A DNA stretch of 64,000 nucleotides from an uncultured Bacilli bacterium (GCA_944372245.1 CALVYN010000002.1:4065-68064), one strand, 5' to 3'; numbered from the stretch's first letter, positions 1,851-39,151 are shown. Made by a program: numbers and translations. The notes: generated from the letters alone by a model not told the origin.

Positions 1851-1853
1851 TCA

Positions 1854-1892
1854 AAAAAACGTGCCTAATAGCACGTTTTTTATTTAACAACT
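1854..1892 (+). terminator. Rho-independent terminator (aaaaacgtgc-ctaatag-cacgtttttt)
   Basis: Perfect 9-bp inverted repeat followed by T-run directly after stop codon of upstream ORF. Confidence 0.7.
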
Positions 1893-1935
1893 TATAGCAG
1901 AACTTGCAGTTTGGGCGTGTGTTTCCCCAGGGGAC

Positions 1936-14836: not shown

Positions 14837-14923
14837 TGGTGGGCTCGGAGAGACTTGAACTCTCACGGGTTTAACCCCATTAGAACCTGAATCTAACGTG
14901 TATACCAATTTCACCACGAGCCC
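14837..14923 (-). tRNA. tRNA-Leu (anticodon CAG), type II with long variable arm
   Basis: Reverse complement folds as cloverleaf: acceptor GGGCUCG/CGAGCCC, anticodon loop UUCAGGU, 3' CCA encoded. Confidence 0.8.
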
Positions 14924-15014: not shown

Positions 15015-16781
15015 CTAGGCCTTGCCGAAGAGCTTGTTGAAGAAGTTGACGATCGAGTTCCAGATATCGATGAAGAACTGGAAGAAGGAGTTGGTCCGCT
15101 TGGGGGGATTGGGGTCCAGACCCAGCTGGCTCTGGGCGACGACCTTGAGGGTCACGCCCGCGTAGCGGGTCTGGCCGTCGGCCGTCTGCGCCCGGATGAC
15201 CAGGCGGTAGCTGCCCGGCGCATAGCTCCCGTCGATGGCCCCGCCCTGGATGATCTCCGCCCTGACGTAGTCCAGCCTCTCGAGGCTGTTCTCCGCGACC
15301 AGGCGGTCGACCACCTCCATCGGCGAGAGCTCGGAGCCCTCCATGACGGTCAGGGTCGAGCCGTAGACGAACCAGACGGGACCCTCCTGGTCCTCGACCT
15401 CGATGCGGATTTCCTTCTCCGTGCGGTTGCCGGCCGCATCGTAGGCTACGATGGTCGCGGTGTAGGTGCCCACCTTCACGGTGTTGGAACCCGAGTGGTA
15501 CTCGTCGTTCTCTAAGGAGACGTCGATATCCTCGCCGTCGATCTCGTCGACGATGGTGAACAGGTCGATCAGGCCCTCGCTGGTCAGGGGCGCGGTGACG
15601 GCGGTGGTGATGGTCGAGGGGCCGTCAATCTCGGGCTGGACGTCATCGTAGATGAGCACGGTGCCCTCCCACTCGGTGCGGTTGTAGCCGTCGCTGGCGG
15701 CGATCACCAGGGGAAAGGTGCCGATCTTGAAGGGCTCATAGCCCTCGATGGTGACCTCGGGAGCGATGCCGGGGCGCAGGTCGTCCACGACGGTCGCCAG
15801 GTCGGCGATGGCCGACTGGGCCTCCGCCAGGGTCCTGGCCCGGCTGTAGGGCAGCCTGACCATGTTGGCCTCATCGGCGGTGTCCACACCGATGGCGGGC
15901 GCCGAGAGGTCCTGATAGTGGATGGTGACGTTGATGTAGGTGGTGTTGTCCGAGTCGTCGGTCGCCTTGAACTTGACCGAGACGATATCGCCCACCTTGA
16001 AGCCGGCCAAGAGCTTCGCGGCGTAGTCCTCCAGGCTGGTGCCATCGGGCTGGGGATAGATCCAGCGCTCCTCGTATTCGTCGTAGGCGATCAGGCCGTT
16101 GAGGAGGTCGCTGGGTTCGACGGGTTCGATGGGCGAGGCGACGATCTCCACCTTGCCGTTCTCGCTCACCTGGTAGGTGTTCTCGATCTTGTCGACGTCG
16201 CCGGTGAAGGGGATGTATCCGCGATACGAGGGGCCCTTGTAGGCCGACATGCGCGAGAGGTAGGCGCCGGTACCGCCCAGGTCGATCGTGATGTCGACGT
16301 TGCCGCCCATCGTGTGGGGGACCTTGTAGATGAAGCCGTAGACGCCGTTCTCGTAGACGGCCTTTAGATTGCCAGTGGTGTCGGTCTGACCCGTCGAGCT
16401 GGGTGAGGCTCTGAACTCCAGGGACGCCGTCTCGCGGAAGCCCGCGTTGGTGTCGAAGGTGAAGGAGATGCGCATGGGGTTGGTGCTGGAGAGGGGATTG
16501 CCACCGAAGCAGAGGGCGAAGTTATAGACCTCGTTATAGCGCAGGCCGGAGAAGTGGGCGGTGATCTTCTGGCCGGTCTGGGTGGCGTAGCCACCGGCGA
16601 TGATGTTCTCGTAGTTTGTGGTGCCAAACGTGGCGCTGCCAGCCTTGGCGGCGACCACTCGGGCCGCGGGCCGATCCGCGCCCAGGGGCGCTCCGGCGCT
16701 GGCGGCCGGTCGGCCTGCGCCCCCGGCCAGGGCGGCCAGGGTCGCTAGACCCAGGCTGAGAATTTTCTTTTGAATTCGCAA
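15015..16781 (-). CDS. Secreted/cell-surface hypothetical protein (588 aa) with N-terminal signal peptide
   Basis: N-terminus MRIQKKILSLGLATLAALAGGAG...; beta-rich repetitive body; no catalytic motif recognised. Confidence 0.6.
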   Translation of the reverse strand: MRIQKKILSLGLATLAALAGGAGRPAASAGAPLGADRPAARVVAAKAGSATFGTTNYENIIAGGYATQTGQKITAHFSGLRYNEVYNFALCFGGNPLSSTNPMRISFTFDTNAGFRETASLEFRASPSSTGQTDTTGNLKAVYENGVYGFIYKVPHTMGGNVDITIDLGGTGAYLSRMSAYKGPSYRGYIPFTGDVDKIENTYQVSENGKVEIVASPIEPVEPSDLLNGLIAYDEYEERWIYPQPDGTSLEDYAAKLLAGFKVGDIVSVKFKATDDSDNTTYINVTIHYQDLSAPAIGVDTADEANMVRLPYSRARTLAEAQSAIADLATVVDDLRPGIAPEVTIEGYEPFKIGTFPLVIAASDGYNRTEWEGTVLIYDDVQPEIDGPSTITTAVTAPLTSEGLIDLFTIVDEIDGEDIDVSLENDEYHSGSNTVKVGTYTATIVAYDAAGNRTEKEIRIEVEDQEGPVWFVYGSTLTVMEGSELSPMEVVDRLVAENSLERLDYVRAEIIQGGAIDGSYAPGSYRLVIRAQTADGQTRYAGVTLKVVAQSQLGLDPNPPKRTNSFFQFFIDIWNSIVNFFNKLFGKA

Positions 16782-16908: not shown

Positions 16909-16985
16909 GCTCCCGTAGCTCAGTTGGATAGAGCGACCGCCTCCTAAGCGGTAGGCCACAAGTTCGAATCTTGCCGGGAGCGCCA
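16909..16985 (+). tRNA. tRNA-Arg (anticodon CCU)
   Basis: Cloverleaf: acceptor GCUCCCG, anticodon loop CUCCUAA, T-loop UUCGAAU, encoded CCA. Confidence 0.85.
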
Positions 16986-16998
16986 TTTTTCTTATTAT

Positions 16999-17075
16999 GT
17001 GCCCGTAGCTCAGCTGAATAGAGCGCAAGACTCCGAATCTTGAGGCCGAGGGTTTGAGTCCCTTCGGGCACACCA
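16999..17075 (+). tRNA. tRNA-Arg (anticodon CCG)
   Basis: Cloverleaf: acceptor GUGCCCG, anticodon loop CUCCGAA, T-loop UUUGAGU, encoded CCA. Confidence 0.85.
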
Positions 17076-17382: not shown

Positions 17383-17410
17383 AGAGCTGGCTCGTCCAGC
17401 TCTTTTTTGA
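17383..17410 (+). terminator. Rho-independent terminator (agagctgg-ctcgtc-cagctct + TTTTTT)
   Basis: Perfect stem and T6 immediately after stop codon. Confidence 0.7.
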
Positions 17411-17796
17411 CTGAATATCAAAGTCTTAAATACTGGTGTAGACAAAGGTGTCCGAAAAGTGAGAGCAATGAGCATCTTATTTATGTAGAAATAAAGCGTT
17501 TCTAATGAAAATTGTTTGGATTAAAGGAAGATACTTTTAGATGCTTTGCTAACTAAAGTTAGAGTGATTTGATTCAAGAAGCACTATTTATACAGCAGCA
17601 AAAATTATAAAAAAGGGACCCAGCGAGAGCTGAGTCCTGTCGTGCCTCAGGAAAAGGGGATCATCCCAAGGCGAGACTCCTCCAGTACCGCCATCGTGGT
17701 GAGCGGTCTTTCGGCATCCTGGTTAATTAAGATATGCAAACCGGCGTTATAGGTCAACTATTTTCTATACCTCTCACGTGGATATATATCTGCTGA

Positions 17797-17830
17797 AAAT
17801 AGAAAGGGCACCCGGCGCGGGGTGCCTATA
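17797..17830 (-). terminator. Rho-independent terminator on minus strand downstream of tRNA-Leu(UAG)
   Basis: ggcaccccgcgccgggtgcc hairpin followed by T-rich run when read on minus strand. Confidence 0.5.
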
Positions 17831-17875
17831 TCTCTTACCTCTCTCCGGGTCGAAGTCGAGGTAGACTTCTTCTCG

Positions 17876-17960
17876 TGGTGCCGCCGGAGGGGCTTGAACC
17901 CTCACGAGTTGCCTCACAGGATCCTAAGTCCTGCGTGTATGCCAATTTCACCACGGCGGC
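17876..17960 (-). tRNA. tRNA-Leu (anticodon UAG), type II
   Basis: Reverse complement: acceptor GCCGCCG/CGGCGGC, anticodon loop CUUAGGA, long variable arm, CCA encoded. Confidence 0.8.
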
Positions 17961-18011
17961 AGCGAATAGCTATTTTACAACGGTTTTAGCGTGTATAATC
18001 ACATACCGGTC

Positions 18012-18103
18012 TGGAGAAGTACCCAAGTGGTTGAAGGGACCGGTTTCGAAAACCGGAAGTAGGTGCAAGCCTAGCAGGGGTTCAAATCCCCTCTTCTCCG
18101 CCA
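18012..18103 (+). tRNA. tRNA-Ser (anticodon CGA), type II
   Basis: Acceptor GGAGAAG/CUUCUCC, anticodon loop UUCGAAA, long variable arm, T-loop UUCAAAU, CCA encoded; upstream TTTACA...gtgTATAAT promoter-like sequence. Confidence 0.85.
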
Positions 18104-18116
18104 TCGTGATCTCATC

Positions 18117-18155
18117 CGAACCCTCAGTGCCTGCCGCACGGGGTTCGTTTTTTTG
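18117..18155 (+). terminator. Rho-independent terminator after tRNA-Ser
   Basis: gaaccc...gggttc stem followed by TTTTTTT. Confidence 0.6.
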
Positions 18156-18447
18156 AGCTCGTATTTTCCAAAAATGGGAACTGATTGGTAAAGGATTATT
18201 GATAACTAGTTTTTTTACATGCATAGAATAGTGCTTGTGAAAGGAGAGGTTTGGCAGCGGAGAAAAAGAACATTTAAAGAAGCAGAGGCGAAGGAATGAT
18301 GACATTCCTCTGCGCAGCCACATCTCGATTTTACTGTCAAAATGACGTGAAACCATATGAATTCCAATCCTGTTTGGACGGAAGAGATGTAGTCATAACT
18401 TATTCAGATGTCGATGACAGGAAGCTAGTTAGGAACGGACAATATCT

Positions 18448-19569
18448 ATGAACATTTACAAAAAGGTTTTGCCTTCCAAAATCATTGATTTCAAGTATTG
18501 GAAGAGAAGAAGCGTCGCTGCACATGTGTGCTTATGCGTCTTTTTTACTCTGGTGATTGGAGGCGCTATCCTCGCTTCGGTCTACACGAGTCTAAATGAG
18601 GGTCAGGGAGATTCGAACACGGTAGTCATGTCTATCGCCCTGGATAGCCTACTTGTGTTTCTGCTGGCTGTCGCCCTGGCGTTTATCCTCGTTCATCTAT
18701 TCAAATTCAGCCTTTTTGCCAAGCTTGAAGAGGCGCTAAAGACCCCTCATAAAACTTTCCCCTGCTTGATCGATTCGAAGGAGAAGGTCTGGTATCTGAG
18801 CCCCGTCTCTCCCCGCAGAGTATCTAGGGTGATGCTCGAGCTCTCCGATGGATCCATCGTGGCTGCGGAGAATCCTATCGCTCATGAGAATGCGATAAAG
18901 GCGCTCGAGGGAAAGGTCATGACGGCTGTCGAGGTCGATGGTCGATATTTTCTGCTCTGCGATGAGTGGGATGAAGGCGAGGTTTCCTTTAAGCCTAAGG
19001 AAGATGCTAAATCCAGCTGGAGCGAAAGATTGGAGGAGTGCTCGATAGCCGGCAGTCAGTTGACTCCGAAGCTTCAGAGCTTGAAGAGCGAACTCTATGG
19101 CTACAGCAATCGCTCATTTACCTTCTGGCTCGTGATATCGATCGCTGCGTTCTTCATGCTAGCTTTCATCGGTTTCTTCGTCTCTGCAATCGTTCTCTTC
19201 GACAACGTGCTCTTTGGTTTTTTCGACTCTCTGATCTTCTTGGTGCTCGGGCTTTATGCCCTTCTTATCGGGTGGCCTCTGATTCGGGAGTACATCGAGT
19301 TTAGAAGGATACTTAAGAGACAGGGGCGATTCGTTGAGGGCCGCTTCAAGCAGGTCAGATTCGTCGAGAATCCGGGCAACTTCGTGCAGCGGGGAAGAGC
19401 TCAGAAAAAGTATTGGATCTCCGTGGAGGTCGAAGGGCTGGGGACTGTCAATCTGGATTCCTATATCCTGGAGGATGACGTTCAAAGGTATAGGAACTCT
19501 TACATCACGATTCTCTACTCGGATGGGAAGTTCTTCCCCCTCAACAGGACCAAGCCTATTGTTCAATAA
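18448..19569 (+). CDS. Hypothetical membrane protein (373 aa; TM helices near N-terminus and middle), lower-GC gene
   Basis: ORF with about 45% GC in a >60% GC genome; hydrophobic segments; no catalytic motif recognised. Confidence 0.55.
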   Translation: MNIYKKVLPSKIIDFKYWKRRSVAAHVCLCVFFTLVIGGAILASVYTSLNEGQGDSNTVVMSIALDSLLVFLLAVALAFILVHLFKFSLFAKLEEALKTPHKTFPCLIDSKEKVWYLSPVSPRRVSRVMLELSDGSIVAAENPIAHENAIKALEGKVMTAVEVDGRYFLLCDEWDEGEVSFKPKEDAKSSWSERLEECSIAGSQLTPKLQSLKSELYGYSNRSFTFWLVISIAAFFMLAFIGFFVSAIVLFDNVLFGFFDSLIFLVLGLYALLIGWPLIREYIEFRRILKRQGRFVEGRFKQVRFVENPGNFVQRGRAQKKYWISVEVEGLGTVNLDSYILEDDVQRYRNSYITILYSDGKFFPLNRTKPIVQ

Positions 19570-19921
19570 TTGATAGTTAAAAGGTGAATCCCGATCTTAG
19601 GCGAGGGAGTGGATTGCAATCGTTTTTAAGCACCTGCAAGGTCTCCTTCGAATGAGTGTGAGAAGCTTCTCGAGGCGAAGATATGGGATGGTAAACTTGA
19701 TAACGCAGAAATCAATATCTCGGGTTCATTTTCCCCAGATGACATTCCCACTCTCTCCAACTAGGAATTTTTCTACGCCAAAATTGTCGGATAACTCCGA
19801 CACCCTTCCTGTTATCTACTTGTGGGATATAATCCCAGTGACCCTCTTCGGGTCATATTTAGCGCCGCTGTCCGATGCTAGGGCGTGCACAAAAAGCCGA
19901 TCATCTTCACGGCGGTAGCTA

Positions 19922-19960
19922 TCACAGCGGAGCGCCTCGGATGCGCTCCGCTTTCCTTTG
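19922..19960 (+). terminator. Strong hairpin/terminator-like element (gcggagcgc-ctcggat-gcgctccgc + tttcctttg)
   Basis: Perfect 9-bp GC-rich stem followed by T-rich tract, in intergenic region upstream of ABC exporter. Confidence 0.45.
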
Positions 19961-20059
19961 TCCCGGAGAGTGGTTATGTCGGAAGAGAGGTCTTGAGAAG
20001 GAGTTGCCCCTTCTAGTCGATCTGCTCTCACAGATTGACTTTATCGGAGATAGCCAAAT

Positions 20060-21697
20060 ATGCGTCAGACATTTGAATTGATCTTACATCGAAAGAATAA
20101 ATGGCTTTCCTTTTCACTTATTCTCTTCTGTTTGGCTTCGACAGTCTGTTCTTCCTTCTATCCTCTTTCGTTAGGCTATATTGTTGATAATTTCGATTTC
20201 CTAGGAACGCAGGACCTTCTCATATGTGGGTTGATTTTCTTAATCTCAATCGTTTTGATTCTAACCTTTGATTTTTTTACTAAGCTATTTAGAGCAAAGC
20301 TCAAGATGATGGTTTTGACTGAAGTTCGAGAGACGTGTCTGGCCAATTTACTACAGCTGCCCTTTAGCGAATTCCACAGAAGATCCTTCGATTGGTATTC
20401 ATCCTTTTTGACAAACGATGTCGATGAGTTCTATTCGAGATACCTGGAGAATCTGATCTATGCAGCCCCCAAGGCATTTACCTTGACTGCCCTCTTTTCA
20501 ATCATGTTCTGGCAGAATTGGATCCTGGGTCTAATTATCCTTCTGGTGTCCTTCCTGACATGTCTACTGCCTCCTCTCACCGGAAAACGATTTGATAGAA
20601 AGCAGTCTAAGGTCATCGAGGGGAAGGCCGACTATTTGAAATGTGCTAATGAACTCATGCAGAGCCATGATCTAGTTCAGAGCAATAACTTCTCCCGCCT
20701 CTCTAATCTTCATAAAAGAAGGCTGATGAGAAGACAGTATCTGGAGTTTGAATTCGATAGATATGAGGCGAAAGTTCAAGTTATGGGGGGTGCGACGCTC
20801 TATATCGTTCAAGCGGTCGTATTCATTGCTGGTTTGGCACTGATCTTCACCGACCATTCAACAGTCGGTGAGTTTTCTGCCTCACTCCTCTTTACCGATC
20901 TTATCGCTGCTCAAGTCTCCGATCTGATCTATGACTTCTACGCATGCAAGGGAGGGAAAGCATACGCCATTAAGGTTTTGCGTTACTATTCCACTCCTTC
21001 CTTTTCAAGCGATAGAGAATGCCCCGAGGATTTCCATGCGATTGAACTGGTTGATCCAGTTTTTGAGATCGCCCCATCCAGAGAACTATCTGGTCAATCC
21101 TTTTCGATTAACAAGGGAGATAAGGTAGCAATTATCGGTGCCAATGGCGCTGGTAAAACCACCTTTCTTCGGCTTCTCTGTGGATTTGAAAGATGTACGA
21201 GTGGCAAGATTCTCTTAGATGGGGTTCCTATTGATAGTCTGGATCTCTCCTCTCTCTTGTCGATTGTTCCACAGACCTCATTTCTTTTTGAGGGTACGAT
21301 TAGGGAAAACATCTCGATGTTCTCTTCATTTTGGGATTGCACTGCTGATTGCTGGCTGAAAACTCTGGGCATCTATGATCGCGCTGACGAGAATGTCGGA
21401 AGAGATGGTTGCTTACTCTCCGGAGGCGAAAGAGCGAAGGTTTGCCTCCTTAGAGCGTTGTATCAAAAGAAGCAGATTCTCATCATGGATGAACCATTCG
21501 CATCGATAGATAGAGAAACTGAGGCTGAATTGCAAAGATTTCTCCTGGAGCAGGATATCACCCTACTTGAAGTGACTCACAATCGGAATGAATCCATCCT
21601 CTCTGGCTTCAACTGCATCATCAACATCGAAGATGGCAATATCTCAACTCCTATTTCTCCTGATGTTTATTTTAAAATTTGCAAAGATTCAGACTAA
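20060..21697 (+). CDS. ABC exporter, fused 6-TM permease + ATPase half-transporter (type I exporter), lower-GC gene
   Basis: N-terminal TM domain; Walker A GANGAGKTT, signature variant LSGGERAKV, Walker B ILIMDEPFASID; no N-terminal C39 peptidase domain. Confidence 0.8.
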   Translation: MRQTFELILHRKNKWLSFSLILFCLASTVCSSFYPLSLGYIVDNFDFLGTQDLLICGLIFLISIVLILTFDFFTKLFRAKLKMMVLTEVRETCLANLLQLPFSEFHRRSFDWYSSFLTNDVDEFYSRYLENLIYAAPKAFTLTALFSIMFWQNWILGLIILLVSFLTCLLPPLTGKRFDRKQSKVIEGKADYLKCANELMQSHDLVQSNNFSRLSNLHKRRLMRRQYLEFEFDRYEAKVQVMGGATLYIVQAVVFIAGLALIFTDHSTVGEFSASLLFTDLIAAQVSDLIYDFYACKGGKAYAIKVLRYYSTPSFSSDRECPEDFHAIELVDPVFEIAPSRELSGQSFSINKGDKVAIIGANGAGKTTFLRLLCGFERCTSGKILLDGVPIDSLDLSSLLSIVPQTSFLFEGTIRENISMFSSFWDCTADCWLKTLGIYDRADENVGRDGCLLSGGERAKVCLLRALYQKKQILIMDEPFASIDRETEAELQRFLLEQDITLLEVTHNRNESILSGFNCIINIEDGNISTPISPDVYFKICKDSD

Positions 21698-21886
21698 TAG
21701 ATTCATAAATCTGCTTAATCTCCGCTGAGAGAAGGGTCAAAAGGTAGCATGGAAGGTCTTCACAGGCAGAGTGTATTTCTTAGTGGACGGGGTTTCCTTC
21801 CGAATCGTCTTGAAGGAGAAAAAAGAACATTTTCAATCAGTGTTTGGAGTGTTCATGTTGTTGAAGAAGAGCTCTTGATGCTCTCG

Positions 21887-22894
21887 CTACTGGTAATCGA
21901 AGCGAATATTGCCATCCTCGAAGCTGACCGTGGCAGAGCCGCCAGTCATGATGGGGAGAGAGGGTGGCAGATGTCCCAGGTCGACATCCATCAATAGGGG
22001 AACGTTGAAGCTTTCGAGCATGTCGATTGCGGCTCGGTACTTGTCCACGCCACCGATATTCATGTCGTTGCACAGGTGGCGTCCGAGGATGAAGCCGGAC
22101 GCCCGCTCGAACCAGCCAGCCTCCCTCAGCTCGAACAGGGCGCGGCGGATTCCGAGAGGATTGAGGTCGCAGGCTTCGAGGAACCAGATGAAGCCTCCTT
22201 CATTAGTCTCGATGAAGCGACGCACACCATCGAAGCGCGTGCCGCAGATATTGACTAGGCAGTCCAGACAGCCGCCGAGCAGCGTTCCAGAGAAGGGGGC
22301 GGAGTATCCGTGGGCACGGATGATCTTCCTCTCGGTCAGGTTGAGGGGCGCTAGGGGATTCTCCGGGGTGACTAGACTGGTCAACTCCCAGGTGGGATAG
22401 CCGGCAAACTGTTTCTTTCCCTCTAGCATCTTGATGGCATCCAGACAATCCATCTTGAAGGGCGTGGAACAGAATTGAGGAGCACAGGGACCGTAGATGG
22501 TCTTCACACCGCACAGGGTGGTCAGGGTGAAAGTCAGGTTGGTGTTGTCAGAGAAACCCATGAACCACTTGGGAGGGAGGTGCGATAGACGGTCGAAATC
22601 GACGTGGGGAAGAATCTCGCACATCAGCTCTCCTCCGCCCACCGAGATGATCGCATCGGCATCGCTCTCGTAGGCGCGCATGAACTCCTCGGCCTGCTCG
22701 CGGGGCGAGGCGGAGGCGATGAGGCCATCATCCCTGAAGATGTTCGGGCCCTCGACGACCGTATAGCCGGCTTCCTTCAATAGTCTAATCGCCTCCTTCA
22801 GCCGGGTCAGGTAGGGCTCGCCGGCGCAGCCGCAGCTGGGGGCGACCAGAGCGATCTTGGCGCCCTTCTTGAGATATTCGGGTGTTCTCACCAT
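21887..22894 (-). CDS. Peptidase S66 family LD-carboxypeptidase (LdcA/MccF-like)
   Basis: Nucleophile motif MGFSDNTNLT (GxSDxT) and overall length/architecture of LD-carboxypeptidases. Confidence 0.7.
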   Translation of the reverse strand: MVRTPEYLKKGAKIALVAPSCGCAGEPYLTRLKEAIRLLKEAGYTVVEGPNIFRDDGLIASASPREQAEEFMRAYESDADAIISVGGGELMCEILPHVDFDRLSHLPPKWFMGFSDNTNLTFTLTTLCGVKTIYGPCAPQFCSTPFKMDCLDAIKMLEGKKQFAGYPTWELTSLVTPENPLAPLNLTERKIIRAHGYSAPFSGTLLGGCLDCLVNICGTRFDGVRRFIETNEGGFIWFLEACDLNPLGIRRALFELREAGWFERASGFILGRHLCNDMNIGGVDKYRAAIDMLESFNVPLLMDVDLGHLPPSLPIMTGGSATVSFEDGNIRFDYQ

Positions 22895-22953
22895 AAGAAA
22901 AAACTCCTCCTCGTCTTCGAGGAGAAGTATAGCAATCGCTGCTGGATAGAGGC

Positions 22954-23433
22954 TTACAGGTCCTCGGGGGCGGGAGGGGTGGGATGCGTCTTGAGGTAGA
23001 GCTCGCGGATCTCGTCCGGCATCTTGTCGGGGCTGATGGCATCGACCGCATCGGTCGAGCCCAGCTCGTCAGCCTTGGTGTAGTACCACTTCTTGAACTT
23101 GATCAGGTCGAGGGCATCCTCCAGCTGGACGATCTCCTCGCGGATGGCCTTCTCGCGCTCGATGAACATCTTCAGGCGCTTCTGGATGGTCGATGACCCC
23201 TGTCGGGTCCAGCGGATGAAGGCCTTGATGTCGATCAGCTGCATGCCGGTCTTCTTCAGGCACTCGATCAGGCGGATGTTGTTCAGGTCCCTCACGGTGA
23301 AGCGGCGGGTGCCCGAGGGCAGCCGTCCCAGGTCGGGGAACAGACCCTCCTTATCGTAGAAGCGCAGGGTGGGGATGCTCAGCCCCGTGATCTTCGAGAC
23401 CTCACCGATGCTGTATGTTCTCTCTTCTGCCAT
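22954..23433 (-). CDS. MerR-family transcriptional regulator
   Basis: N-terminal MerR HTH YSIGEVSKITGLSIPTLRFYDKEGL; coiled-coil effector region. Confidence 0.8.
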   Translation of the reverse strand: MAEERTYSIGEVSKITGLSIPTLRFYDKEGLFPDLGRLPSGTRRFTVRDLNNIRLIECLKKTGMQLIDIKAFIRWTRQGSSTIQKRLKMFIEREKAIREEIVQLEDALDLIKFKKWYYTKADELGSTDAVDAISPDKMPDEIRELYLKTHPTPPAPEDL

Positions 23434-23533
23434 GGTCTCTACCTCCTGTTGCTGGGTCTATTTATAGAGGTTGCAGAGCTGCCGATAAAGCTAAAGTATG
23501 CTTTATCCAGGCGGAAGAGGGCTATCTAACCTG

Positions 23534-23986
23534 CTATCGATCCATCTCGCTTTCTAGGAGGGCGATCTTCAGCTCGATGCCGGCGAGGGAATAGCCACCT
23601 GATCCCTGGCTGGCGACGACCCTGTGGCAGGGATAGAACAGAGGCAGGGGGTTGTGTGCCAGGGCGGAGGCCACCCCGCGGGGGCTGGTCCTGAGAGCTT
23701 TAGCCAGCTCACCATAGGTGATTGTTTTCCCTCGGGGAATCTCTCTATCCATGTACTCGAAGATTCTCGCCTGCAGCGGTGTTAACTGGCTGGAGTCACA
23801 GGGGTACTCGACCTTAGGAGTGCGTCCATCAATCGCATCTTGGAGGGCTCTCTCGAGGGAGGAATCCCGCTGGGTCAGGTCATCTTTGAGAGTCTGAATC
23901 CTTATGCAGACACCATCTTCTATCTGGGCCTCAACGGGGAAGACCCTGCCTTTGACTCTCAGGTCGATGCGTACGCGCAGAGCCAT
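23534..23986 (-). CDS. ogt: Methylated-DNA--protein-cysteine methyltransferase
   Basis: Active-site PCHRVV motif, HTH YGELA; typical length about 150 aa. Confidence 0.8.
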   Translation of the reverse strand: MALRVRIDLRVKGRVFPVEAQIEDGVCIRIQTLKDDLTQRDSSLERALQDAIDGRTPKVEYPCDSSQLTPLQARIFEYMDREIPRGKTITYGELAKALRTSPRGVASALAHNPLPLFYPCHRVVASQGSGGYSLAGIELKIALLESEMDR

Positions 23987-24639
23987 CTATAGCCCTCCAT
24001 TCTTCCTTGGTATCTGCCGTTACCAAGGAGATTATCAGAATCATAGGATATAAGAGGAAGAGATGTAGGATGAAAGGCAAAAGATAAAATAAAAATTTCA
24101 ATAAAGAAACTAGTGGTATAAAACTAGCATTTTCACAAAAAGAAAATGGATTGTATATTGAGATGAAGCATTCCTTCGGCATTTCTAATTGTGCTGCTGC
24201 TATAGGAGAAAAACTAACGAGATAGCTATTTGATGGTCAGCTCTATTTTGCATGAACGATTCAATTTGCTGTCCGTTTTGCGGGGACTTTAGCCCTTCTA
24301 GGCGAACATTAATCCAGTTGAGAGACGATTGCTGATCCTTCGAGAAAGGGCTGCTTCTGAACGATTTCTCACATGAATGAGAAATGTTTCATTTTCGATA
24401 TACTTCGACTTTCTAATATTAAAAGAAAGTTAATTTGTATTTCAGGAAGCGTTTTCAGGTCGGATAAATACAACTTTGAGGATACAAGTTATATCGGTTT
24501 GTTGATTTATCCGCTTTCTAATTGGGTTTTTGAGGGTTCCGGTCATTGGATTTCTCATCGATAAAATGTAAGAATATGCAAGTCCGAAGTTATCCTTATT
24601 TTTCATTTCTCCAAAATTCTTTAGCTCGAGGAGGTATGT

Positions 24640-25347
24640 GTGGCAAACAATAAGCACAGAAGCACCTGGATGATTGCGGGTGCAGTCGGAGCGGGCCTAG
24701 CCGTGGTCGGCGTCGGCCTCTGCTTCTTCTTCTTGGCCAACGGTGAGCTGGCCGATAGAAACGATGGCAACGTCAACGTCGATCCCGTAGAGGGTCCCTA
24801 TGGGACGCTCACCGCGACCATGGCGGATAGCTCCATCGCCCTGCTGGGCACCGGTGACAACAGCGGATACGTGGATATCGATGGCGTGGAAGACCTCAGG
24901 ACCAGCGTGGTCTTCAACCTCTCGGTCGCGCCCGCCTTCATCGATGAGAACCTCAACTCGACCATCCGGTTCGACATCACGCTCAAGAGCGCCCTCCCCA
25001 CCGTGGAGGCCGCAGGCGATCTGATTGGCCAGCGCGAGGGCGAGAGCTGGACCTACATCGAGTTTGAGCCGGTCAGCCTGACCATTGCGACCGACGACTT
25101 CGTCTACTCTTCCGAGACCGGGCGCTTCCTCTACGAGTCGCCCGAGGTCGGCTGCTCGTTCGTCTGGGGCAGCTTCTTCAACGGGATGAATCCCCAGCTG
25201 TACTACAACGGACTCTTCGCTGGCGAGTCGCCCGCCCTCGTGCCCAACCCCGATAACTTCCGTCTCGTCACCGATGAGCTCAATGCGATGGAGAAGGCGT
25301 TCGCGGGCTCGCAGATCGATCTGCAGCTGGCGCTGTCGACCCTCTAG
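24640..25347 (+). CDS. Secreted protein with N-terminal signal anchor; candidate SipW-cognate (TasA/camelysin-like architecture)
   Basis: N-terminal TM WMIAGAVGAGLAVVGVGLCFFFLANGELAD followed by beta-rich about 200-aa body; GTG start per ORF track; placed directly upstream of S26B signal peptidase gene. Confidence 0.5.
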   Translation: MANNKHRSTWMIAGAVGAGLAVVGVGLCFFFLANGELADRNDGNVNVDPVEGPYGTLTATMADSSIALLGTGDNSGYVDIDGVEDLRTSVVFNLSVAPAFIDENLNSTIRFDITLKSALPTVEAAGDLIGQREGESWTYIEFEPVSLTIATDDFVYSSETGRFLYESPEVGCSFVWGSFFNGMNPQLYYNGLFAGESPALVPNPDNFRLVTDELNAMEKAFAGSQIDLQLALSTL

Positions 25348-31795: not shown

Positions 31796-32524
31796 ATGGT
31801 TAAGATGAGAATGGCTCTGATCGTGGGGTTAGCCGCCCTGGCCATCGGCAGCGCGGGCACGGCCGCGTTCATCTTCGGCAGCCGCAAGGCCGTCCAGGGC
31901 AACGTGGGCTTCGATGCGGATTCGGGCAGCTACGACACCGACGTCCTGCGCCCGATCGGCCTGCCCGAGAGCGTGACCTACGTCGCGGATTCGGCCCGGG
32001 CCTCCACGGTCGCTGACGGCGGCTACGAGACTGTCGCCGACCTGAACCTGGGAGCGGACAGCCCCATCCCCGAGACCGACCAGTCCGCCTTCTTCGTGAA
32101 GGCGAGCTTCGGCTATGACCCGCAGAAGGCTTCCGCCTGGATCGAGAGGAACTGCCACACTTTCAGCTGGCTGTACGCCTCGCTGGTCCCCGCGGATGCT
32201 TCGGCGTTCGCAAAGAACTTCGCCAGCGCGGAGGCGGCGGCCTATCTGGTCTATACCGGCACCGAGGTCGCCCCGGCCTACGGCTCCGGTGTGGCGATTG
32301 CTCCGCTCGGTACGCTGACCGACGGCGATCGGACGGGTCTGGGTTTCGGCGAGGTGTTCTACGAGGGAACGGACCTCGCTCAGTTCTTCCAGCTGGGCAT
32401 CAGCGCGGATCAGAAGTTCGATCTGATCTTCGCCCTGCCTGTCGGCGAGGAGTTCAACCTCGAAGAGGTCAAGACGTTGGATTTCAGCATCGGTCTGAAT
32501 GTCAGGGAGGTGAAGTATGAATAA
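31796..32524 (+). CDS. Small secreted protein; candidate SipW-cognate substrate
   Basis: N-terminus MALIVGLAALAIGSAGTAAFIFGS resembles SipW-cognate signal (GT-A-x-F-x-F). Confidence 0.5.
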   Translation: MVKMRMALIVGLAALAIGSAGTAAFIFGSRKAVQGNVGFDADSGSYDTDVLRPIGLPESVTYVADSARASTVADGGYETVADLNLGADSPIPETDQSAFFVKASFGYDPQKASAWIERNCHTFSWLYASLVPADASAFAKNFASAEAAAYLVYTGTEVAPAYGSGVAIAPLGTLTDGDRTGLGFGEVFYEGTDLAQFFQLGISADQKFDLIFALPVGEEFNLEEVKTLDFSIGLNVREVKYE

Positions 32525-35500
32525 GAGGATTCTCATCAATTCGCTGGTCGGCGGCACCGTCGTGGCGGGCCTGTCCCTGCCCCTAGCGCACGCCAGCTTT
32601 TCATTTGCCGACTACGGCGTCCTGGAGGATGGCACCATCTCCTCGGTCGCTCCTGCAGAGGGCTACGACTACACCGTGACCTTCGCTGAGGGCAACGCGA
32701 CCTCCAGCGATTCGAAGACCACCACCCTGCCCGAGGCAATCGGCTTCCAGGAGGGGGCGGAGTTCACCCCGGAGGCCATCGAGACCACTCCCGCAAAAGA
32801 GGGTTATGCCTTCGATGGCTACTACACCGATGCCTCCTGCACCACGGCCTACAACTTCTACACCAGCGTCGATTCCGACATGACCCTGTACGTAGCCTTC
32901 ACTCCTCTGGACAGCTATTCCTATACCGATAGTTCCCAGAACGTCTTCACGGCCAGCAGCAGCCTAGATCTGAAGGAGGACACCGTCGATATCGGCGGGA
33001 TCAAGGTCTTCAAGTACAGCTCCTCGGCTAAGAATACCGGCGATGGCCAGTACACCCTGAACCTCGCCACCACCGCTCTGGACGACGGTGCGACCTACTC
33101 GCTGCAGGTCTATGGTAAAGATAAAGAAGGAAGGGGGGATGTTTGGAACTCTAGCGTCTTTCTGCCTAGCCAGAATGACGGACGGGTCATTCGCTCTAAC
33201 TCCAAGTTTTTTACCCTTGTCCTCCAGGATGATCTGGTCATCTCCAACGGGTCGACTCTCCAGATTGGCGGCTGTTCCTCCCTGGTCGGCAATGGTATCT
33301 ACTGCGATCTCGCTAGCGATAACTTCGCTCTGGATCTCAACGGACACAATCTGATCGTCGAGCCCGGTTCGAACCTTGAGTTATATGGCCTTCTGACCGA
33401 TTCCACCAAGAAAGGTATGGTCGTGGTCGATAGCGGCGCTTACATCAAGGTGAAGATGTCGGTCTACAACGGTGGAGGTTCGCAGCTGTTGACCGCCAGT
33501 TCCTACTATGTGAATCCCTTCCCCTTCTATGGCTTCCCTGCTCTGGATGCGAATATCCGCTTCTACGCCGGCGCGGAGATGACCGCAGTCATGTCGGCGG
33601 GAACCAGCAGCCAGGGTGTGGTGGTCGATGTGCCTTTCATCGGCAAACCCCTGCCTGCGGATTCGGATGAGACCGCAGCCATGCTGATCCTAGAGTCTAA
33701 AGATGCCAATTCCCCCGGGTACCTCGACTTCCGCCACAATATGATTCCTGCTCCCCGCGGAAGCTTGAATGCCTACCGGGTGTGGGACACCCAGTATCGC
33801 GAGTACTTCTCCTTCCACGACTGCCTCATGACACTCGGCTCGCTCGCAATGAAAGTATCAATGGCTTCGATCGACTCGGCCGAGTTCCTCTGGGAGCTGC
33901 CGGGCAACAGCGATATCACCCTGGATAACTGCGATCTCTACATCGACCACCAGTTCCAGCTCAATCCCGGTCTCAACTTCTATTCCGATAAGGATTCCAA
34001 CATCATCTTCCGCTGCAATTCTGTCGACCCCTGCGGCATCGTCGCTCCTTCCAAGCTCTTCTCCACGGCCGTGGCCGACAACATCTCCAACCTCGGCTCC
34101 ACCACCGCCGGTCACATCATGGCCGATCTCAGGGGCAAGGAGCAGTCGCTGATCACGGTCATGGGCGACATCAGGTTCGAGTATCCCGAGGGGAGTGCCA
34201 AGGTTGATCAGGTCACCTTCCTTGGAGGATATTTCAACCTGTCGGATCGGGCTCTCGCCTCCGTTCTCGCTGCGGCTGAGAAGGGGCAGGTCACGCTCAT
34301 GTCCAAGGGTCAGCTCGCCAACTTCCACTACGTCAACTCCTGGAGTAGCAGATGGGGTGTGGCCAGCTACTACGTCTATCCCCTCATCGCCAATGGCGTC
34401 GCCTACACCAATGACCATCTGGATGGCGGTCTCAAACCTTTGGATGGAAAGATCGGTTCGGGCATCTACACCGATGGGACGAATTACTATTCCTACTTCA
34501 ATGTGGATAACGAGCGCCCCGACGACTTCGGTGAGGGAAACTTCGAGCTCAGGAAGATCGACTACGATGCGACGACTCACTCCTACACCATCGCCGGCGA
34601 CGACAGCGGACAGAAGTATGCCTACTTCGCTGGTATCTCCGTCCCTGTCTATCTGTTCCAGAAGGATGGCAAGAGCTGGGTCACGATGTCCGATATGCTG
34701 ATAGACAGTGCGGCTTCGAGCTACGACTTTGTCATTACCTACGACGAGGCGAGCGGGGGCTATCTTCTGGCTAAGACACAGACCTACGATTCTGGCGTCG
34801 AAGATATTTCCATCGCTGTGACTCTCAAAGCGGGTAACAACTGTGCAGCGGTGGCTGACGTTCAGCTGACCGAAAAGATCGGTGCCACTTTGAACCTGAC
34901 CCAACTGGCTTCTAAGTATGGTTTCACAACCACTAGTTCTGAGGCTAAGAACAATTTTGAGGTCGAGGTTACTGGCGGCGAGACGACGTCTATCAGTGAG
35001 ACAACTCTCGTGATCGACCTCAATCTCGGTCTGGAGATTCTGGAGAGCAAGAGCATCACCATCACCTTCAATTATGGTGGCAGCTCTGGCGGCGGAGGCG
35101 ATGGCTGCATCTTTGCGGATGCTCCTGTCCTGATGGCCGACGGCTCGACCAAGCGGGCCGATGAGGTCAAGGTCGGCGATATCGCTCTGGCCTGGGACTT
35201 CGAGACGGGCCGGGTTAAGGCGAACCGCGTCTTCTTCTACGAGATGTACGAGCAGGACATCTTCGCTGTGTGGATCCAGCTGGCGAACGGCGAGGAGCTG
35301 CGCATCGCCTGCCCTCACGCGCTCTTCGACTACAGCGAGCGAAAGTTCTTCACCGTCACCACCGAGAACTACACCTCGATCGTCGGCCGCGAGATCGCCA
35401 TCTTCAACGGCGTGGACAGCGGCCTGTCCTCCACTAGGATCGTCTCGGTCAGGGGACACCGGGAAAGGCGTGTCGTTGGAAACATCGAGACCGCACACAC

Positions 35501-35777
35501 TCTGAACTTCTTCTGCGGTGGGGCGCTCAACGCCGATGCTGTCTACGTGGCTAAGTTGCCCTTCGAGGTCGGTGCGGACTTTGCCTACGACCGGAAGGAT
35601 GTGGCCGAGAGCATCAGCAGGTACGGCCTGACCAAGTACGAGGTGTTCAAGGACTACATGAATTTCGATAACTTCGACTGTCTCAACGGCCAGTACGTCT
35701 CCATCTGTATCGGTAAAGGGCTCTTTACGCTCGACTACCTGTTTGAGATTGCCAAGTACTATCTTGGCGGCAAGTAG
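32517..35777 (+). CDS. Giant secreted protein (1086 aa) with C-terminal Gly/Ser linker, Hint/intein-like autoprocessing domain and about 85-aa C-terminal tail
   Basis: N-terminal signal LVGGTVVAGLSLPLAHASFSFADYG; C-terminus GGSSGGGGDG-CIFADAPVLMADGS...VKVGDIAL (Hint block A starting with Cys) ... RRVVGNIETAHTLNFF (TxxH / intein block F-like). Confidence 0.65.
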   Translation: MNKRILINSLVGGTVVAGLSLPLAHASFSFADYGVLEDGTISSVAPAEGYDYTVTFAEGNATSSDSKTTTLPEAIGFQEGAEFTPEAIETTPAKEGYAFDGYYTDASCTTAYNFYTSVDSDMTLYVAFTPLDSYSYTDSSQNVFTASSSLDLKEDTVDIGGIKVFKYSSSAKNTGDGQYTLNLATTALDDGATYSLQVYGKDKEGRGDVWNSSVFLPSQNDGRVIRSNSKFFTLVLQDDLVISNGSTLQIGGCSSLVGNGIYCDLASDNFALDLNGHNLIVEPGSNLELYGLLTDSTKKGMVVVDSGAYIKVKMSVYNGGGSQLLTASSYYVNPFPFYGFPALDANIRFYAGAEMTAVMSAGTSSQGVVVDVPFIGKPLPADSDETAAMLILESKDANSPGYLDFRHNMIPAPRGSLNAYRVWDTQYREYFSFHDCLMTLGSLAMKVSMASIDSAEFLWELPGNSDITLDNCDLYIDHQFQLNPGLNFYSDKDSNIIFRCNSVDPCGIVAPSKLFSTAVADNISNLGSTTAGHIMADLRGKEQSLITVMGDIRFEYPEGSAKVDQVTFLGGYFNLSDRALASVLAAAEKGQVTLMSKGQLANFHYVNSWSSRWGVASYYVYPLIANGVAYTNDHLDGGLKPLDGKIGSGIYTDGTNYYSYFNVDNERPDDFGEGNFELRKIDYDATTHSYTIAGDDSGQKYAYFAGISVPVYLFQKDGKSWVTMSDMLIDSAASSYDFVITYDEASGGYLLAKTQTYDSGVEDISIAVTLKAGNNCAAVADVQLTEKIGATLNLTQLASKYGFTTTSSEAKNNFEVEVTGGETTSISETTLVIDLNLGLEILESKSITITFNYGGSSGGGGDGCIFADAPVLMADGSTKRADEVKVGDIALAWDFETGRVKANRVFFYEMYEQDIFAVWIQLANGEELRIACPHALFDYSERKFFTVTTENYTSIVGREIAIFNGVDSGLSSTRIVSVRGHRERRVVGNIETAHTLNFFCGGALNADAVYVAKLPFEVGADFAYDRKDVAESISRYGLTKYEVFKDYMNFDNFDCLNGQYVSICIGKGLFTLDYLFEIAKYYLGGK

Positions 35778-38394: not shown

Positions 38395-38439
38395 ATAGCT
38401 TGAGAGGCTACAGCGGAGTTTGGGCTCTCTGCCCGAAGT

Positions 38440-39130: not shown

Positions 39131-39151
39131 AGAAACAAGGAGCATCAAGAT

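What the first reader, a model, noticed from the sequence alone, without database searches (positions are those of the whole stretch)
17400..24640. Lower-GC stretch adjacent to a tRNA cluster encoding membrane protein, ABC exporter, MccF-like LD-carboxypeptidase, MerR regulator and Ogt
Immediately after tRNA-Leu(UAG)/tRNA-Ser(CGA) the sequence becomes visibly AT-richer. This covers 17400-18450, 19570-20060 and 24000-24640, which are almost devoid of GC, and the genes at 18448 and 20060, which are roughly 42-46% GC against over 60% in flanking housekeeping genes. tRNA genes are classic integration sites. The cargo reads like a resistance/immunity module. There is a half-size ABC exporter with a deviant LSGGERAKV signature. 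There is an S66 LD-carboxypeptidase with the GFSDNT nucleophile motif; that family includes MccF, which detoxifies microcin-C-like aminoacyl-nucleotide antibiotics. There are also a MerR regulator and an O6-alkylguanine transferase. No integrase, transposase or flanking direct repeat is visible. This points to an old or degraded island, or to a non-integrative acquisition.
Basis: partly seen in the sequence, partly recalled or inferred. Interest (0 to 1): 0.55.

Follow-up and report, generated by a model that had tools for sequence, protein, structure and literature searches.

The report
Decayed peptide-antibiotic islet, strain-variable
The low-GC patch is the leftover of a small foreign gene cluster for a modified secreted peptide: this strain keeps only the export pump, sister strains have the whole cluster or none of it, and the neighbouring peptidase, regulator and DNA-repair genes are ordinary resident genes.

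Summary
The compositional anomaly is real but narrower than described. Only two genes are true outliers: the ABC exporter at 20060-21697 (GC3 0.47, z -7.7) and an ORFan membrane gene at 18448-19569 (GC3 0.63, z -4.6). S66 and MerR are native-like and Ogt is mildly atypical. The "GC-devoid" spacers are 36-48% GC, which is ordinary for intergenic DNA here.

Conspecific metagenome contigs (about 98% identical in the flanks) show four structural versions of the locus. One has precursor peptide, radical-SAM/SPASM maturase and this ABC exporter as an operon. The window type keeps the exporter plus only the last 37 codons of the maturase (19962-20081). Two other types lack the exporter. All versions keep the five tRNAs and S66-MerR-Ogt.

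Eight independent loci pair a maturase homologue with an exporter carrying the same LSGGExxK[IV]C signature. Seven of them also show a short upstream ORF ending CxxRTQR, and three sit among mobility or plasmid-type genes.

So this is a degraded, strain-variable RiPP islet of about 2.2 kb (19696-21876), not a 7-kb resistance island. No integrase or att repeat was found, and the variable segment starts 1.6 kb from tRNA-Ser. The MccF-immunity reading is unsupported.

The parts
17876..17960 (-). tRNA-Leu(UAG). It lies inside the AT-rich spacer and is conserved in all structural variants that reach it.
18013..18103 (+). tRNA-Ser(CGA). No copy of its 3' end occurs elsewhere in the window, and it is conserved in variants V2-V4.
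18448..19569 (+). ORFan gene for a 373-aa protein with two predicted transmembrane hairpins, each followed by a beta-rich stretch. GC3 is 0.63. It has no homologue among 1.84 billion representative proteins. It is cut after codon 97 in variant V4. pN/pS is 0.48 against L069.
19696..21876 (+). Strain-variable segment, the remnant of the islet. In variant V3 (L069) it is replaced by 205 unrelated bases that carry a bidirectional terminator.
18738..21867 (.). The 3130 bases missing in variant V4 (L067, L070, L071, L074). The breakpoints lie at an imperfect 13-nt repeat, TTGAAGAnGnGCT. The right breakpoint is 9 nt inside the islet end, so V4 derives from an islet-bearing ancestor.
19926..19952 (+). 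Strong terminator-like hairpin (10 pairs, 8 G-C) followed by a T-rich tail. It ends 10 nt before the deletion junction.
19962..20081 (+). 3' remnant of the radical-SAM/SPASM maturase gene: the last 37 codons and the stop, overlapping the ABC start codon. It is nearly identical to the L045 copy (99.4% over 157 nt, L045 2644-2800). Everything upstream of 19962 is unrelated to L045.
20060..21697 (+). Intact half-size ABC exporter (545 aa) with the family signature LSGGERAKVC. It is 26-34% identical to the exporters that follow homologous maturases in seven other loci. dN/dS is 0.12 against the L045 allele.
21887..22894 (-). S66 serine peptidase (335 aa), a resident gene present in all variants. 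The Ser/Glu/His triad aligns with that of MccF.
22954..23433 (-). MerR-family regulator (159 aa). The best NCBIfam match is NmlR, below its cut-off. Codon usage is native and a terminator lies at 22928-22903.
23534..23986 (-). O6-alkylguanine-DNA methyltransferase (150 aa) with the PCHR active site. It is mildly AT-shifted (GC3 0.68).
23987..24639 (.). A 653-nt spacer of 36% GC between divergent genes. It is conserved in the sister strains and is not part of the variable segment.

Best explanation
The low-GC stretch is a small, horizontally acquired and now decaying islet. It once carried a three-gene operon for a ribosomally made, radical-SAM-modified peptide (RiPP).

The intact operon (strain L045) contains:
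- a 34-residue precursor ending CPTRTQRI;
- a hairpin;
- a radical-SAM/SPASM maturase;
- a dedicated ABC exporter that overlaps the maturase by 22 nt.

In that version the maturase would modify the conserved C-terminal CxxRTQR motif, probably through a thioether link from the Cys, and the exporter would secrete the product. The chemistry and the export are inferred.

In the window strain a deletion or replacement removed the precursor and all but the last 37 codons of the maturase. A terminator hairpin now sits directly upstream of the still-intact exporter, so this strain cannot make the peptide. The exporter is either a recent relic or is retained for export or self-protection; which of these holds is not shown. 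Other strains have lost the exporter too. The ORFan membrane gene between tRNA-Ser and the islet is also atypical and dispensable.

S66 peptidase, MerR and Ogt are resident chromosomal genes that merely abut the islet.
For: Composition:
- Only the ABC gene and the 373-aa gene are strong outliers in GC3 and codon usage. Tetranucleotide usage recovers at 21 kb.

Remnant of the maturase:
- L045 is 97.9% identical to the window from 19962 rightwards and unrelated to its left.
- L045 encodes a 441-aa radical-SAM/SPASM protein whose last 37 residues are the window ORF tail PGEWLCRKRG...VRHLN.
- That protein has full-length matches to RiPP maturase models (CefB 7.5e-41, geopeptide, TIGR04463) and to the solved structure 5wgg (Radical SAM domain protein; from my own knowledge this is the sactisynthase CteB).
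- The window junction is 100% identical in two other samples, L002/L053 and L003, so it is not an assembly chimera.

A conserved module:
- Eight independent loci carry a maturase homologue followed by an ABC exporter 26-34% identical to the window's. E-values are 1e-63 to 1e-99, and all carry LSGGExxK[IV]C.
- Seven of the eight have a 25-34-residue upstream ORF ending CxxRTQR.

Mobility:
- Some of these modules sit beside a T4SS coupling protein and toxin-antitoxin genes (L063).
- Others sit beside Mob_Pre, ParB and a serine recombinase (L065; the recombinase also in L066), or beside PemK (L057). The host DNA of these loci is 32-48% GC.

Strain variability:
- L069 lacks 19696-21876.
- L067, L070, L071 and L074 lack 18738-21867.
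- All of these keep the five tRNAs. Every contig that extends far enough keeps S66-MerR-Ogt (L067, L071, L074); L069 and L070 end inside S66.

Age of the acquisition:
- The exporter's dS (0.045) matches that of its neighbours and its dN/dS is 0.12. It was therefore already present in the common ancestor of the window and L045 strains.
Against: - The left end of the intact version is unknown, because the L045 contig ends 1.27 kb upstream of the precursor. The order of events is therefore inferred, including whether L069 represents the pre-insertion state.
- No integrase, att repeat or other mobility gene is present at this locus, so the route of entry is unknown.
- The maturase (GC3 0.25) and the exporter (GC3 0.48) differ in composition within one operon. 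This could mean separate histories, although the same trend is seen in the other modules.
- The peptide, its modification and the exporter's substrate are untested.
- A dN/dS of 0.12 does not show that the exporter is still under selection since the deletion.
Confidence: 0.82

Rival explanations
1. A single 7-kb tRNA-integrated island (17400-24640) carries a resistance or immunity cargo made of the ABC exporter, an MccF-like S66 peptidase, MerR and Ogt.
For: - The stretch lies next to tRNAs and has a lower overall GC.
- S66 is nearer to MccF-type than to LdcA-type solved structures (3e-19 against 1e-9).
- Ogt is mildly atypical (GC3 z -3.6).
Against: - S66-MerR-Ogt are kept in every structural variant, while the exporter comes and goes.
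- MerR and S66 have native-like codon usage, and tetranucleotide usage is normal at 21-24 kb.
- S66 has hundreds of 50-65% homologues in MAGs labelled Bacilli, Enteromonas or Erysipelotrichaceae, and in the closest ones it is not next to MerR, Ogt or an ABC exporter.
- The exporter belongs to a RiPP operon.
- There is no att repeat and no integrase.
Confidence: 0.05
2. The orphan exporter is kept on purpose. Non-producer strains retain it as self-protection against the peptide made by co-resident producer strains, giving a producer/'cheater' polymorphism.
For: - The ORF is intact with all ATPase motifs, and dN/dS is 0.12.
- The exporter-only arrangement occurs in three samples.
- Five contigs from other samples break exactly at the junction, as expected if two variants co-occur in a sample.
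Against: - At least five samples hold strains that lost the exporter altogether.
- A strong terminator sits directly upstream, and no promoter-like site lies in the 98 nt before the start codon.
- The dN/dS value integrates time before the deletion.
- No activity of the peptide is known.
Confidence: 0.2
3. There was no horizontal transfer. The two low-GC genes are native, fast-evolving or weakly expressed membrane-protein genes whose composition simply drifts.
For: - Both encode hydrophobic proteins.
- The 373-aa gene has no homologues anywhere, and its GC3 still exceeds its GC1 and GC2.
Against: - The synonymous-site composition is 4.6-7.7 sd away from that of 48 other genes of the window.
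- The genes show presence/absence among strains that are 98% identical.
- The exporter's only relatives are partners of the same maturase family in loci whose DNA is 23-50% GC overall, some of them beside mobility or plasmid-type genes.
Confidence: 0.04

Closest known systems
Minimal radical-SAM RiPP operons of the streptide type (strA-strB-strC; PMC9389541)
   Same: The order is short precursor, then SPASM-type radical-SAM enzyme, then transporter. One homologous locus (L054) has an adjacent HTH_3/TPR regulator. The clusters have a patchy, strain-level distribution.
   Different: The precursor motif is C-terminal CxxRTQR rather than KxxxW. The exporter has no peptidase domain. The maturase is far below every curated NCBIfam cut-off (best 140 bits against 600). 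In the window itself only the exporter and 37 codons of the enzyme survive.
Sactipeptide synthase CteB (PDB 5wgg) and NCBIfam RiPP maturases CefB, geopeptide and TIGR04463
   Same: The CxxxCxxC radical-SAM core and the C-terminal SPASM cysteines are conserved. The substrate is a Cys-bearing short peptide.
   Different: The match to 5wgg covers only the radical-SAM core (query residues 89-235). Precursors here have one or two Cys, not a Cys-rich repeat. The cross-link type is unknown.
Streptosactin exporter GggC and NHLP-type bacteriocin ABC exporters (NCBIfam NF050039, TIGR03796)
   Same: Full-length alignment as a half-size ABC exporter linked to a RiPP operon.
   Different: Scores are 120-130 bits against cut-offs of 750-850. 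The signature is LSGGExxK[IV]C instead of LSGGQ. There is no C39 peptidase domain.
MccF, the microcin C7 self-immunity serine peptidase (PDB 3tla, 3gjz)
   Same: S66 fold family. The Ser (GFSDNT), Glu and His of the triad align. MccF-type structures are the best solved relatives.
   Different: The matches are weak (about 70 bits). None of the flanking genes scanned matched a microcin-C-type biosynthesis family. The gene is resident and lineage-typical. By my own counting in the alignment, the position I equate with MccF Trp186 is Thr, but the residue numbering is uncertain.
tRNA-associated genomic islands
   Same: Atypical composition, proximity to tRNA genes and variable presence among strains.
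   Different: No integrase and no direct repeat of the tRNA 3' end. The variable segment starts 1.6 kb from the tRNA. The size is only about 2-3 kb.

Membership tests
Integrase-type tRNA-linked genomic island | Composition deviates from that of the host | tested here: met
   The ABC gene and the 373-aa gene lie at z -4.6 to -7.7 in GC3 and codon usage. The tetranucleotide minimum falls at 16.5-22 kb. S66 and MerR do not deviate.
Integrase-type tRNA-linked genomic island | Present in some strains of the species and absent in others | tested here: met
   19696-21876 is absent in L069. 18738-21867 is absent in L067, L070, L071 and L074. The flanks are about 98% identical.
Integrase-type tRNA-linked genomic island | Integrase or recombinase gene at one end | tested here: not met
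   No such domain is found in any ORF between 17000 and 25400. Homologous modules elsewhere do sit next to a serine recombinase or Mob genes.
Integrase-type tRNA-linked genomic island | Direct repeat of the tRNA 3' end (attL/attR) bounding the island | tested here: not met
   The tRNA-Ser 3' 25-mer occurs once even with 3 mismatches allowed. No flanking direct repeat of 14 nt or more is present. The variable segment starts at 19696, not at the tRNA.
Radical-SAM RiPP biosynthetic cluster (precursor, rSAM/SPASM maturase, transporter) | Radical-SAM/SPASM maturase gene | tested here: not met
   In the window only the last 37 codons remain (19962-20081). The gene is complete in L045 (441 aa, CxxxCxxC plus SPASM cysteines).
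Radical-SAM RiPP biosynthetic cluster (precursor, rSAM/SPASM maturase, transporter) | Short precursor ORF with a conserved motif directly upstream of the maturase | tested here: not met
   No C..RTQ ORF is found in the window. One is present in L045 and six other modules: L054, L057, L063, L065, L077 and L101.
Radical-SAM RiPP biosynthetic cluster (precursor, rSAM/SPASM maturase, transporter) | Dedicated transporter co-inherited with the maturase | tested here: met
   The window ABC is 98.7% identical to the exporter of the L045 operon. It is 26-34% identical (E 1e-63 to 1e-99) to the exporters that follow maturase homologues in seven other loci, with a shared LSGGExxK[IV]C signature.
Radical-SAM RiPP biosynthetic cluster (precursor, rSAM/SPASM maturase, transporter) | A modified peptide product exists | not testable with these tools
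   This needs expression and mass spectrometry.
MccF (microcin C immunity peptidase) | S66 fold with the Ser-His-Glu triad | tested here: met
   Peptidase_S66 N- and C-terminal domains match at 8.8e-29 and 9.4e-22. GFSDNT, FLEA and GHLPP align to the MccF triad positions.
MccF (microcin C immunity peptidase) | Closer to MccF than to LdcA | tested here: inconclusive
   Best solved structures are MccF or MccF-like at 3e-19 to 1e-16. LdcA-type structures score 1e-9 to 5e-4. The NCBIfam LdcA model gives 55 bits against a cut-off of 378. All matches are weak.
MccF (microcin C immunity peptidase) | Linked to a microcin-C-type (mccABCDE) cluster or a demonstrated aminoacyl-nucleotide substrate | tested here: not met
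   None of the flanking ORFs scanned matched a microcin-C-type biosynthesis family. Relatives at 62% identity lie among unrelated genes (PDT, DAHP synthase). The substrate cannot be tested here.
Ogt/MGMT | Score above the curated cut-off and the PCHR active site | tested here: met
   TIGR00589 gives 71.2 bits against a cut-off of 46.4. The sequence FYPCHRVV is present.
NmlR-type MerR regulator | Score above the equivalog cut-off | tested here: not met
   NF041849 gives 66 bits against 175. Only the general MerR HTH domains pass.

The most novel reading that the evidence does not exclude
The CxxRTQR-precursor / rSAM-SPASM / LSGGE-exporter module is an undescribed family of radical-SAM peptides carried by mobile elements of gut Firmicutes. 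It would have its own cross-link chemistry. This species would then show a live producer / exporter-only / null polymorphism, in which the retained exporter protects non-producers.
Probability: 0.2. Interest if true: 0.55.

Novelty: new member of a known kind. Interest (0 to 1): 0.33.

Why it matters
For genome annotation, an 'orphan multidrug-type ABC exporter' in a low-GC patch can be the last surviving gene of a peptide natural-product operon. Here, comparing strains showed this where single-genome composition could not.

For natural-product mining, the sister loci define a compact three-gene module: a 25-34-residue precursor ending CxxRTQR, a SPASM maturase and a signature-variant exporter. 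No NCBIfam model passes its curated cut-off for either protein, none matched the three precursors tested, and no paper in the searchable library mentions the motif together with radical SAM. The module is small enough for direct heterologous expression.

For population biology, four structural states of one 3-kb locus within about 98%-identical strains give a clean case of gain and stepwise loss of a secreted-peptide locus.

The S66, MerR and Ogt genes are ordinary.

Tried and rejected
- Rfam over the whole window and, at E up to 1, over 17-25 kb found only the five tRNAs. Nothing was found in L045 1-3000.
- A search for att-like copies of the tRNA-Ser 3' end and for flanking direct or inverted repeats gave nothing convincing. 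The 22-nt inverted repeat 21621/21906 reflects a shared 'EDGNI' peptide and is probably chance.
- A genome-contig scan with SufC found only distant relatives (at most 76% identity), too far for synteny. Their DNA beyond the tRNA-Arg pair is also AT-rich, with unrelated genes.
- The word-indexed protein search made the exporter look like an orphan, with a next-best hit at 24%. This is a prefilter artefact, because direct comparison with maturase-linked exporters gives 26-34% identity.
- The 373-aa protein has no Pfam, NCBIfam or PADLOC family and no homologue in 1.84 billion representatives. The two weak hits are repeat proteins. Its AlphaFold model has pLDDT 49, so no fold search was run.
- PADLOC returned only generic P-loop and MerR-HTH matches to 'mads' components, which I do not take as a defence system.
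- L045 1-1300, upstream of the precursor, has no Pfam family (NCBIfam gave only a negligible TraP match, E 0.0098, 15 bits against a cut-off of 177), no plasmid match and no similarity to the window.
- An exact look-up of the 94-aa protein returned nothing.
- The metagenome scan with the maturase profile added only three or four true family members. The rest are other SPASM families, some with a related CxxRSQRC precursor.
- An assembly chimera was considered and rejected, because the junction is identical in three samples.

Full report
**1. The observation**

The window averages 60% GC, and its genes have GC3 of 0.8-0.93. Between 17 and 22 kb, 1-kb windows fall to 43-50% GC, with a further dip at 24-25 kb.

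ARAGORN and Rfam agree on five tRNAs:
- Leu-CAG at 14837-14923
- Arg-CCT at 16909-16985
- Arg-CCG at 16999-17075
- Leu-UAG at 17876-17960
- Ser-CGA at 18013-18103

- a 373-aa membrane protein with no family
- a 545-aa ABC_membrane + ABC_tran exporter with the signature LSGGERAKV
- a 335-aa S66 peptidase (GFSDNT)
- a 159-aa MerR regulator
- a 150-aa Ogt (PCHR motif, above the TIGR00589 cut-off)

I tested the deviation gene by gene against 48 other genes of the window. Their mean GC3 is 0.861 with sd 0.051.

| Gene | GC3 | GC3 z | Codon-usage z |
|---|---|---|---|
| ABC exporter | 0.467 | -7.7 | -7.5 |
| 373-aa gene | 0.626 | -4.6 | -4.7 |
| Ogt | 0.675 | -3.6 | -3.0 |
| S66 | 0.756 | -2.0 | -1.7 |
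| MerR | 0.894 | +0.6 | +1.0 |

- The S66 value is matched by several unrelated genes of the window.
- GC-normalised tetranucleotide usage has its lowest correlation with the window average at 16.5-22 kb. It is normal over 21-24 kb.
- The spacers called 'almost devoid of GC' are 36-48% GC. Other spacers of the window span 31-59%.
- Those spacers are unremarkable in composition, though unusually long and frequent here.

There is a real anomaly, but it concerns two genes rather than five.

**2. What the exporter belongs to**

- An exact-protein look-up found the exporter on contigs from several samples. These are all metagenome assemblies. The window is 99.96% identical to ENA scaffold ONAT22-1_468 and 100% identical to contigs from two other samples.
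- A 99%-identical allele lies on L045. There it is immediately preceded, with a 22-nt overlap, by a 441-aa radical-SAM protein.
- L045 is 97.9% identical to the window from window position 19962 rightwards, through S66, MerR, Ogt and beyond. It is unrelated to the window to the left of that point.
- The last 37 residues of the L045 enzyme (PGEWLCRKRGLEKELPLLVDLLSQIDFIGDSQICVRHLN) are encoded in the window at 19962-20081. The window therefore holds the truncated 3' end of that gene.
- The junction is base-for-base identical in two independent samples, L002 and L003. This rules out a chimeric assembly.
- Immediately left of the junction sits a strong terminator-like hairpin at 19926-19952.

**3. 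The operon in the sister strain**

- The L045 enzyme has the CxxxCxxC motif and C-terminal SPASM cysteines.
- It aligns over its full length to RiPP maturase models: CefB at 7.5e-41, the geopeptide maturase at 2e-35 and TIGR04463 at 4.7e-34. All are far below the curated cut-offs.
- Its best solved relative is PDB 5wgg (Radical SAM domain protein) at 1.8e-17. From my own knowledge this is the sactisynthase CteB.
- Sixty-six bases upstream, behind a GGGAGGTGA ribosome-binding site, lies a 34-codon ORF (MNLKTSNIFKRTFIAKGSFDFDYGNKCPTRTQRI). It is followed by a hairpin.

**4. A conserved module**

- The maturase has homologues at 30-39% identity, and none of them carries a name in the source databases.
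- In every homologous locus I could fetch, the maturase is followed by a 523-525-aa ABC exporter.
- Across the eight loci L045, L054, L057, L063, L065, L077, L078 and L101, that exporter is 26-34% identical to the window's exporter. E-values run from 1e-63 to 1e-99, and all carry LSGGExxK[IV]C.
- In seven of the eight loci a 25-34-residue ORF directly upstream ends in CxxRTQR. The eighth contig starts too close to the enzyme to tell.
- More distant maturases (27-32% identity) have precursors with CxxRSQRC and lack this exporter.
- Several modules sit among mobility or plasmid-type genes: a T4SS coupling protein and toxin-antitoxin genes (L063), Mob_Pre, ParB and a serine recombinase (L065; the recombinase also in L066), and PemK (L057). 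One locus (L054) has an HTH_3/TPR regulator. These loci have 32-50% GC.
- No NCBIfam model matches the three precursors tested.
- No paper in the searchable library holds RTQR or RSQR together with 'radical SAM'.
- A review of radical-SAM RiPPs lists no such motif (PMC9389541).

**5. Strain variation at the locus**

Contigs that encode an identical SufC gave the left flank in other strains. Alignment to the window shows four structural states among strains that are 97.8-98.8% identical in the flanks.

| Variant | Contigs | Structure |
|---|---|---|
| V1 | L045 | Full operon; left end not assembled |
| V2 | window, L001, L002/L053, L003 | tRNA-Ser, 373-aa gene, spacer, maturase stub, exporter, S66 |
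| V3 | L069 | Identical to the window up to 19695, then 205 unrelated bases with a bidirectional terminator, then window 21877 onwards; no exporter |
| V4 | L067, L070, L071, L074 | Window up to 18737 (codon 97 of the 373-aa gene) joined to 21868 |

- V4 is a 3130-nt deletion at an imperfect 13-nt repeat.
- V4 keeps 9 nt of the islet's right end, so it descends from an islet-bearing genome.
- V3 and V4 both keep all five tRNAs.
- Every contig that extends far enough keeps S66-MerR-Ogt (L045, L046, L047, L048, L067, L071, L074); L069 and L070 end inside S66.
- Five contigs from further samples break exactly at 19963. This fits co-occurring variants within a sample, which is an inference.

**6. 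Age and selection**

- Between the window and L045, the exporter has 16 synonymous and 7 non-synonymous differences, giving dS 0.045 and dN/dS 0.12.
- Its neighbours have dS 0.02-0.13 and dN/dS 0.08-0.26.
- The exporter was therefore already in the common ancestor of these strains and has been inherited with its flanks. This says nothing about selection since the deletion.
- The 373-aa gene has pN/pS 0.48 against L069. It has no homologue among 1.84 billion representative proteins and is truncated in V4. It is a dispensable ORFan.
- Its AlphaFold model is unreliable (pLDDT 49).

**7. S66, MerR and Ogt**

- The best solved relatives of S66 are MccF and MccF-like proteins (3e-19 to 1e-16). LdcA-type structures are weaker (1e-9 to 5e-4), and the LdcA equivalog scores 55 bits against a cut-off of 378.
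- The catalytic Ser, Glu and His of S66 align with those of MccF.
- S66 has thousands of homologues, with a smooth series at 50-65% identity. Where the sources name them, they come from Bacilli, Enteromonas and Erysipelotrichaceae MAGs.
- This is the same broad group as the closest SufC relatives.
- In the nearest relatives (62% identity), S66 lies among unrelated genes, with no MerR, Ogt or ABC exporter nearby.
- None of the flanking genes scanned matched a microcin-C-type biosynthesis family.
- MerR is closest to NmlR but below its cut-off. A terminator separates it from S66.
- These three genes are resident chromosomal genes. Nothing links them functionally to the exporter.

**8. Verdict**

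The foreign part is a remnant of about 2.2 kb (19696-21876) of a radical-SAM RiPP operon. A separately atypical ORFan gene lies to its left.

Shown:
- the composition outliers
- the maturase stub
- the conserved module
- the four structural variants

Inferred:
- the order of events
- the thioether-type chemistry
- the present role, if any, of the exporter

The case is a new member of a known kind, namely a strain-variable peptide natural-product islet in decay. The module it derives from appears undescribed and would be easy to test, but it is not itself intact in this window.

Noticed in passing
window 15015-16781 (about 16553-16690); L075, L072, L073: There is a second structural polymorphism. 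In L075 homology to the window stops at about 16553, inside the 588-aa surface-protein gene. The four tRNAs are missing and are replaced by other genes, including a Fer4_12/radical-SAM activase-like 191-aa protein. Two other contigs end at 16664-16686.
   Followed up: partly
window 21887-22894: The S66 gene is 3-5 times more polymorphic between strains (pS 0.086-0.10, 96% nucleotide identity) than the adjacent MerR and Ogt genes (pS 0-0.018).
   Followed up: partly
window 23534-23986: Ogt shows 0-1 synonymous against 2-5 non-synonymous differences between strains, and its GC3 is 0.68 (z -3.6). The counts are small, but this is unusual for a repair gene.
   Followed up: no
window 23987-24639 and 38395-39151: Two long AT-rich spacers (653 nt at 36% GC; 757 nt at 40% GC) have no convincing ORF and no Rfam match. 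The first is conserved at about 97% in sister strains.
   Followed up: no
window 32517-35777: A 1086-aa protein carries a Listeria-Bacteroides repeat and a Hint module. Its GC3 is lowered (0.75, z -2.1).
   Followed up: no
window 39-3210: Two family-less genes (603 aa and 424 aa) have lowered GC3 (0.76 and 0.71, z -1.9 and -3.0). This may be another atypical patch at the window edge.
   Followed up: no
window 17383-17875: A 493-nt spacer downstream of tRNA-Leu(UAG) carries two minus-strand terminator-like hairpins (17826-17807 and 17637-17616). This leaves room for a small untranslated transcript between them.
   Followed up: no
L079, L080, L081, L083/L084 (metagenome loci): More distant SPASM maturases (27-32% identity) are preceded by short ORFs with a related motif, G-C-x-x-R-S-Q-R-C (or CKCSGQRM). 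They lack the LSGGE exporter. This hints at a wider CxxR[ST]QR precursor superfamily.
   Followed up: partly
L004 1-5000 (uncultured Bacillales MAG, SufC 76%): In this distant relative the DNA beyond the tRNA-Leu / tRNA-Arg pair next to the suf operon is also AT-rich (32-43% against 51-58%). It carries unrelated genes (a 587-aa surface-type protein and a 135-aa ORF I did not scan), so this neighbourhood may be variable across the lineage.
   Followed up: partly
window 21621-21642 / 21906-21927: A 22-nt inverted repeat (86% match) corresponds to a shared 'EDGNI' near the C-termini of the convergent ABC and S66 genes. It is probably chance.
   Followed up: no
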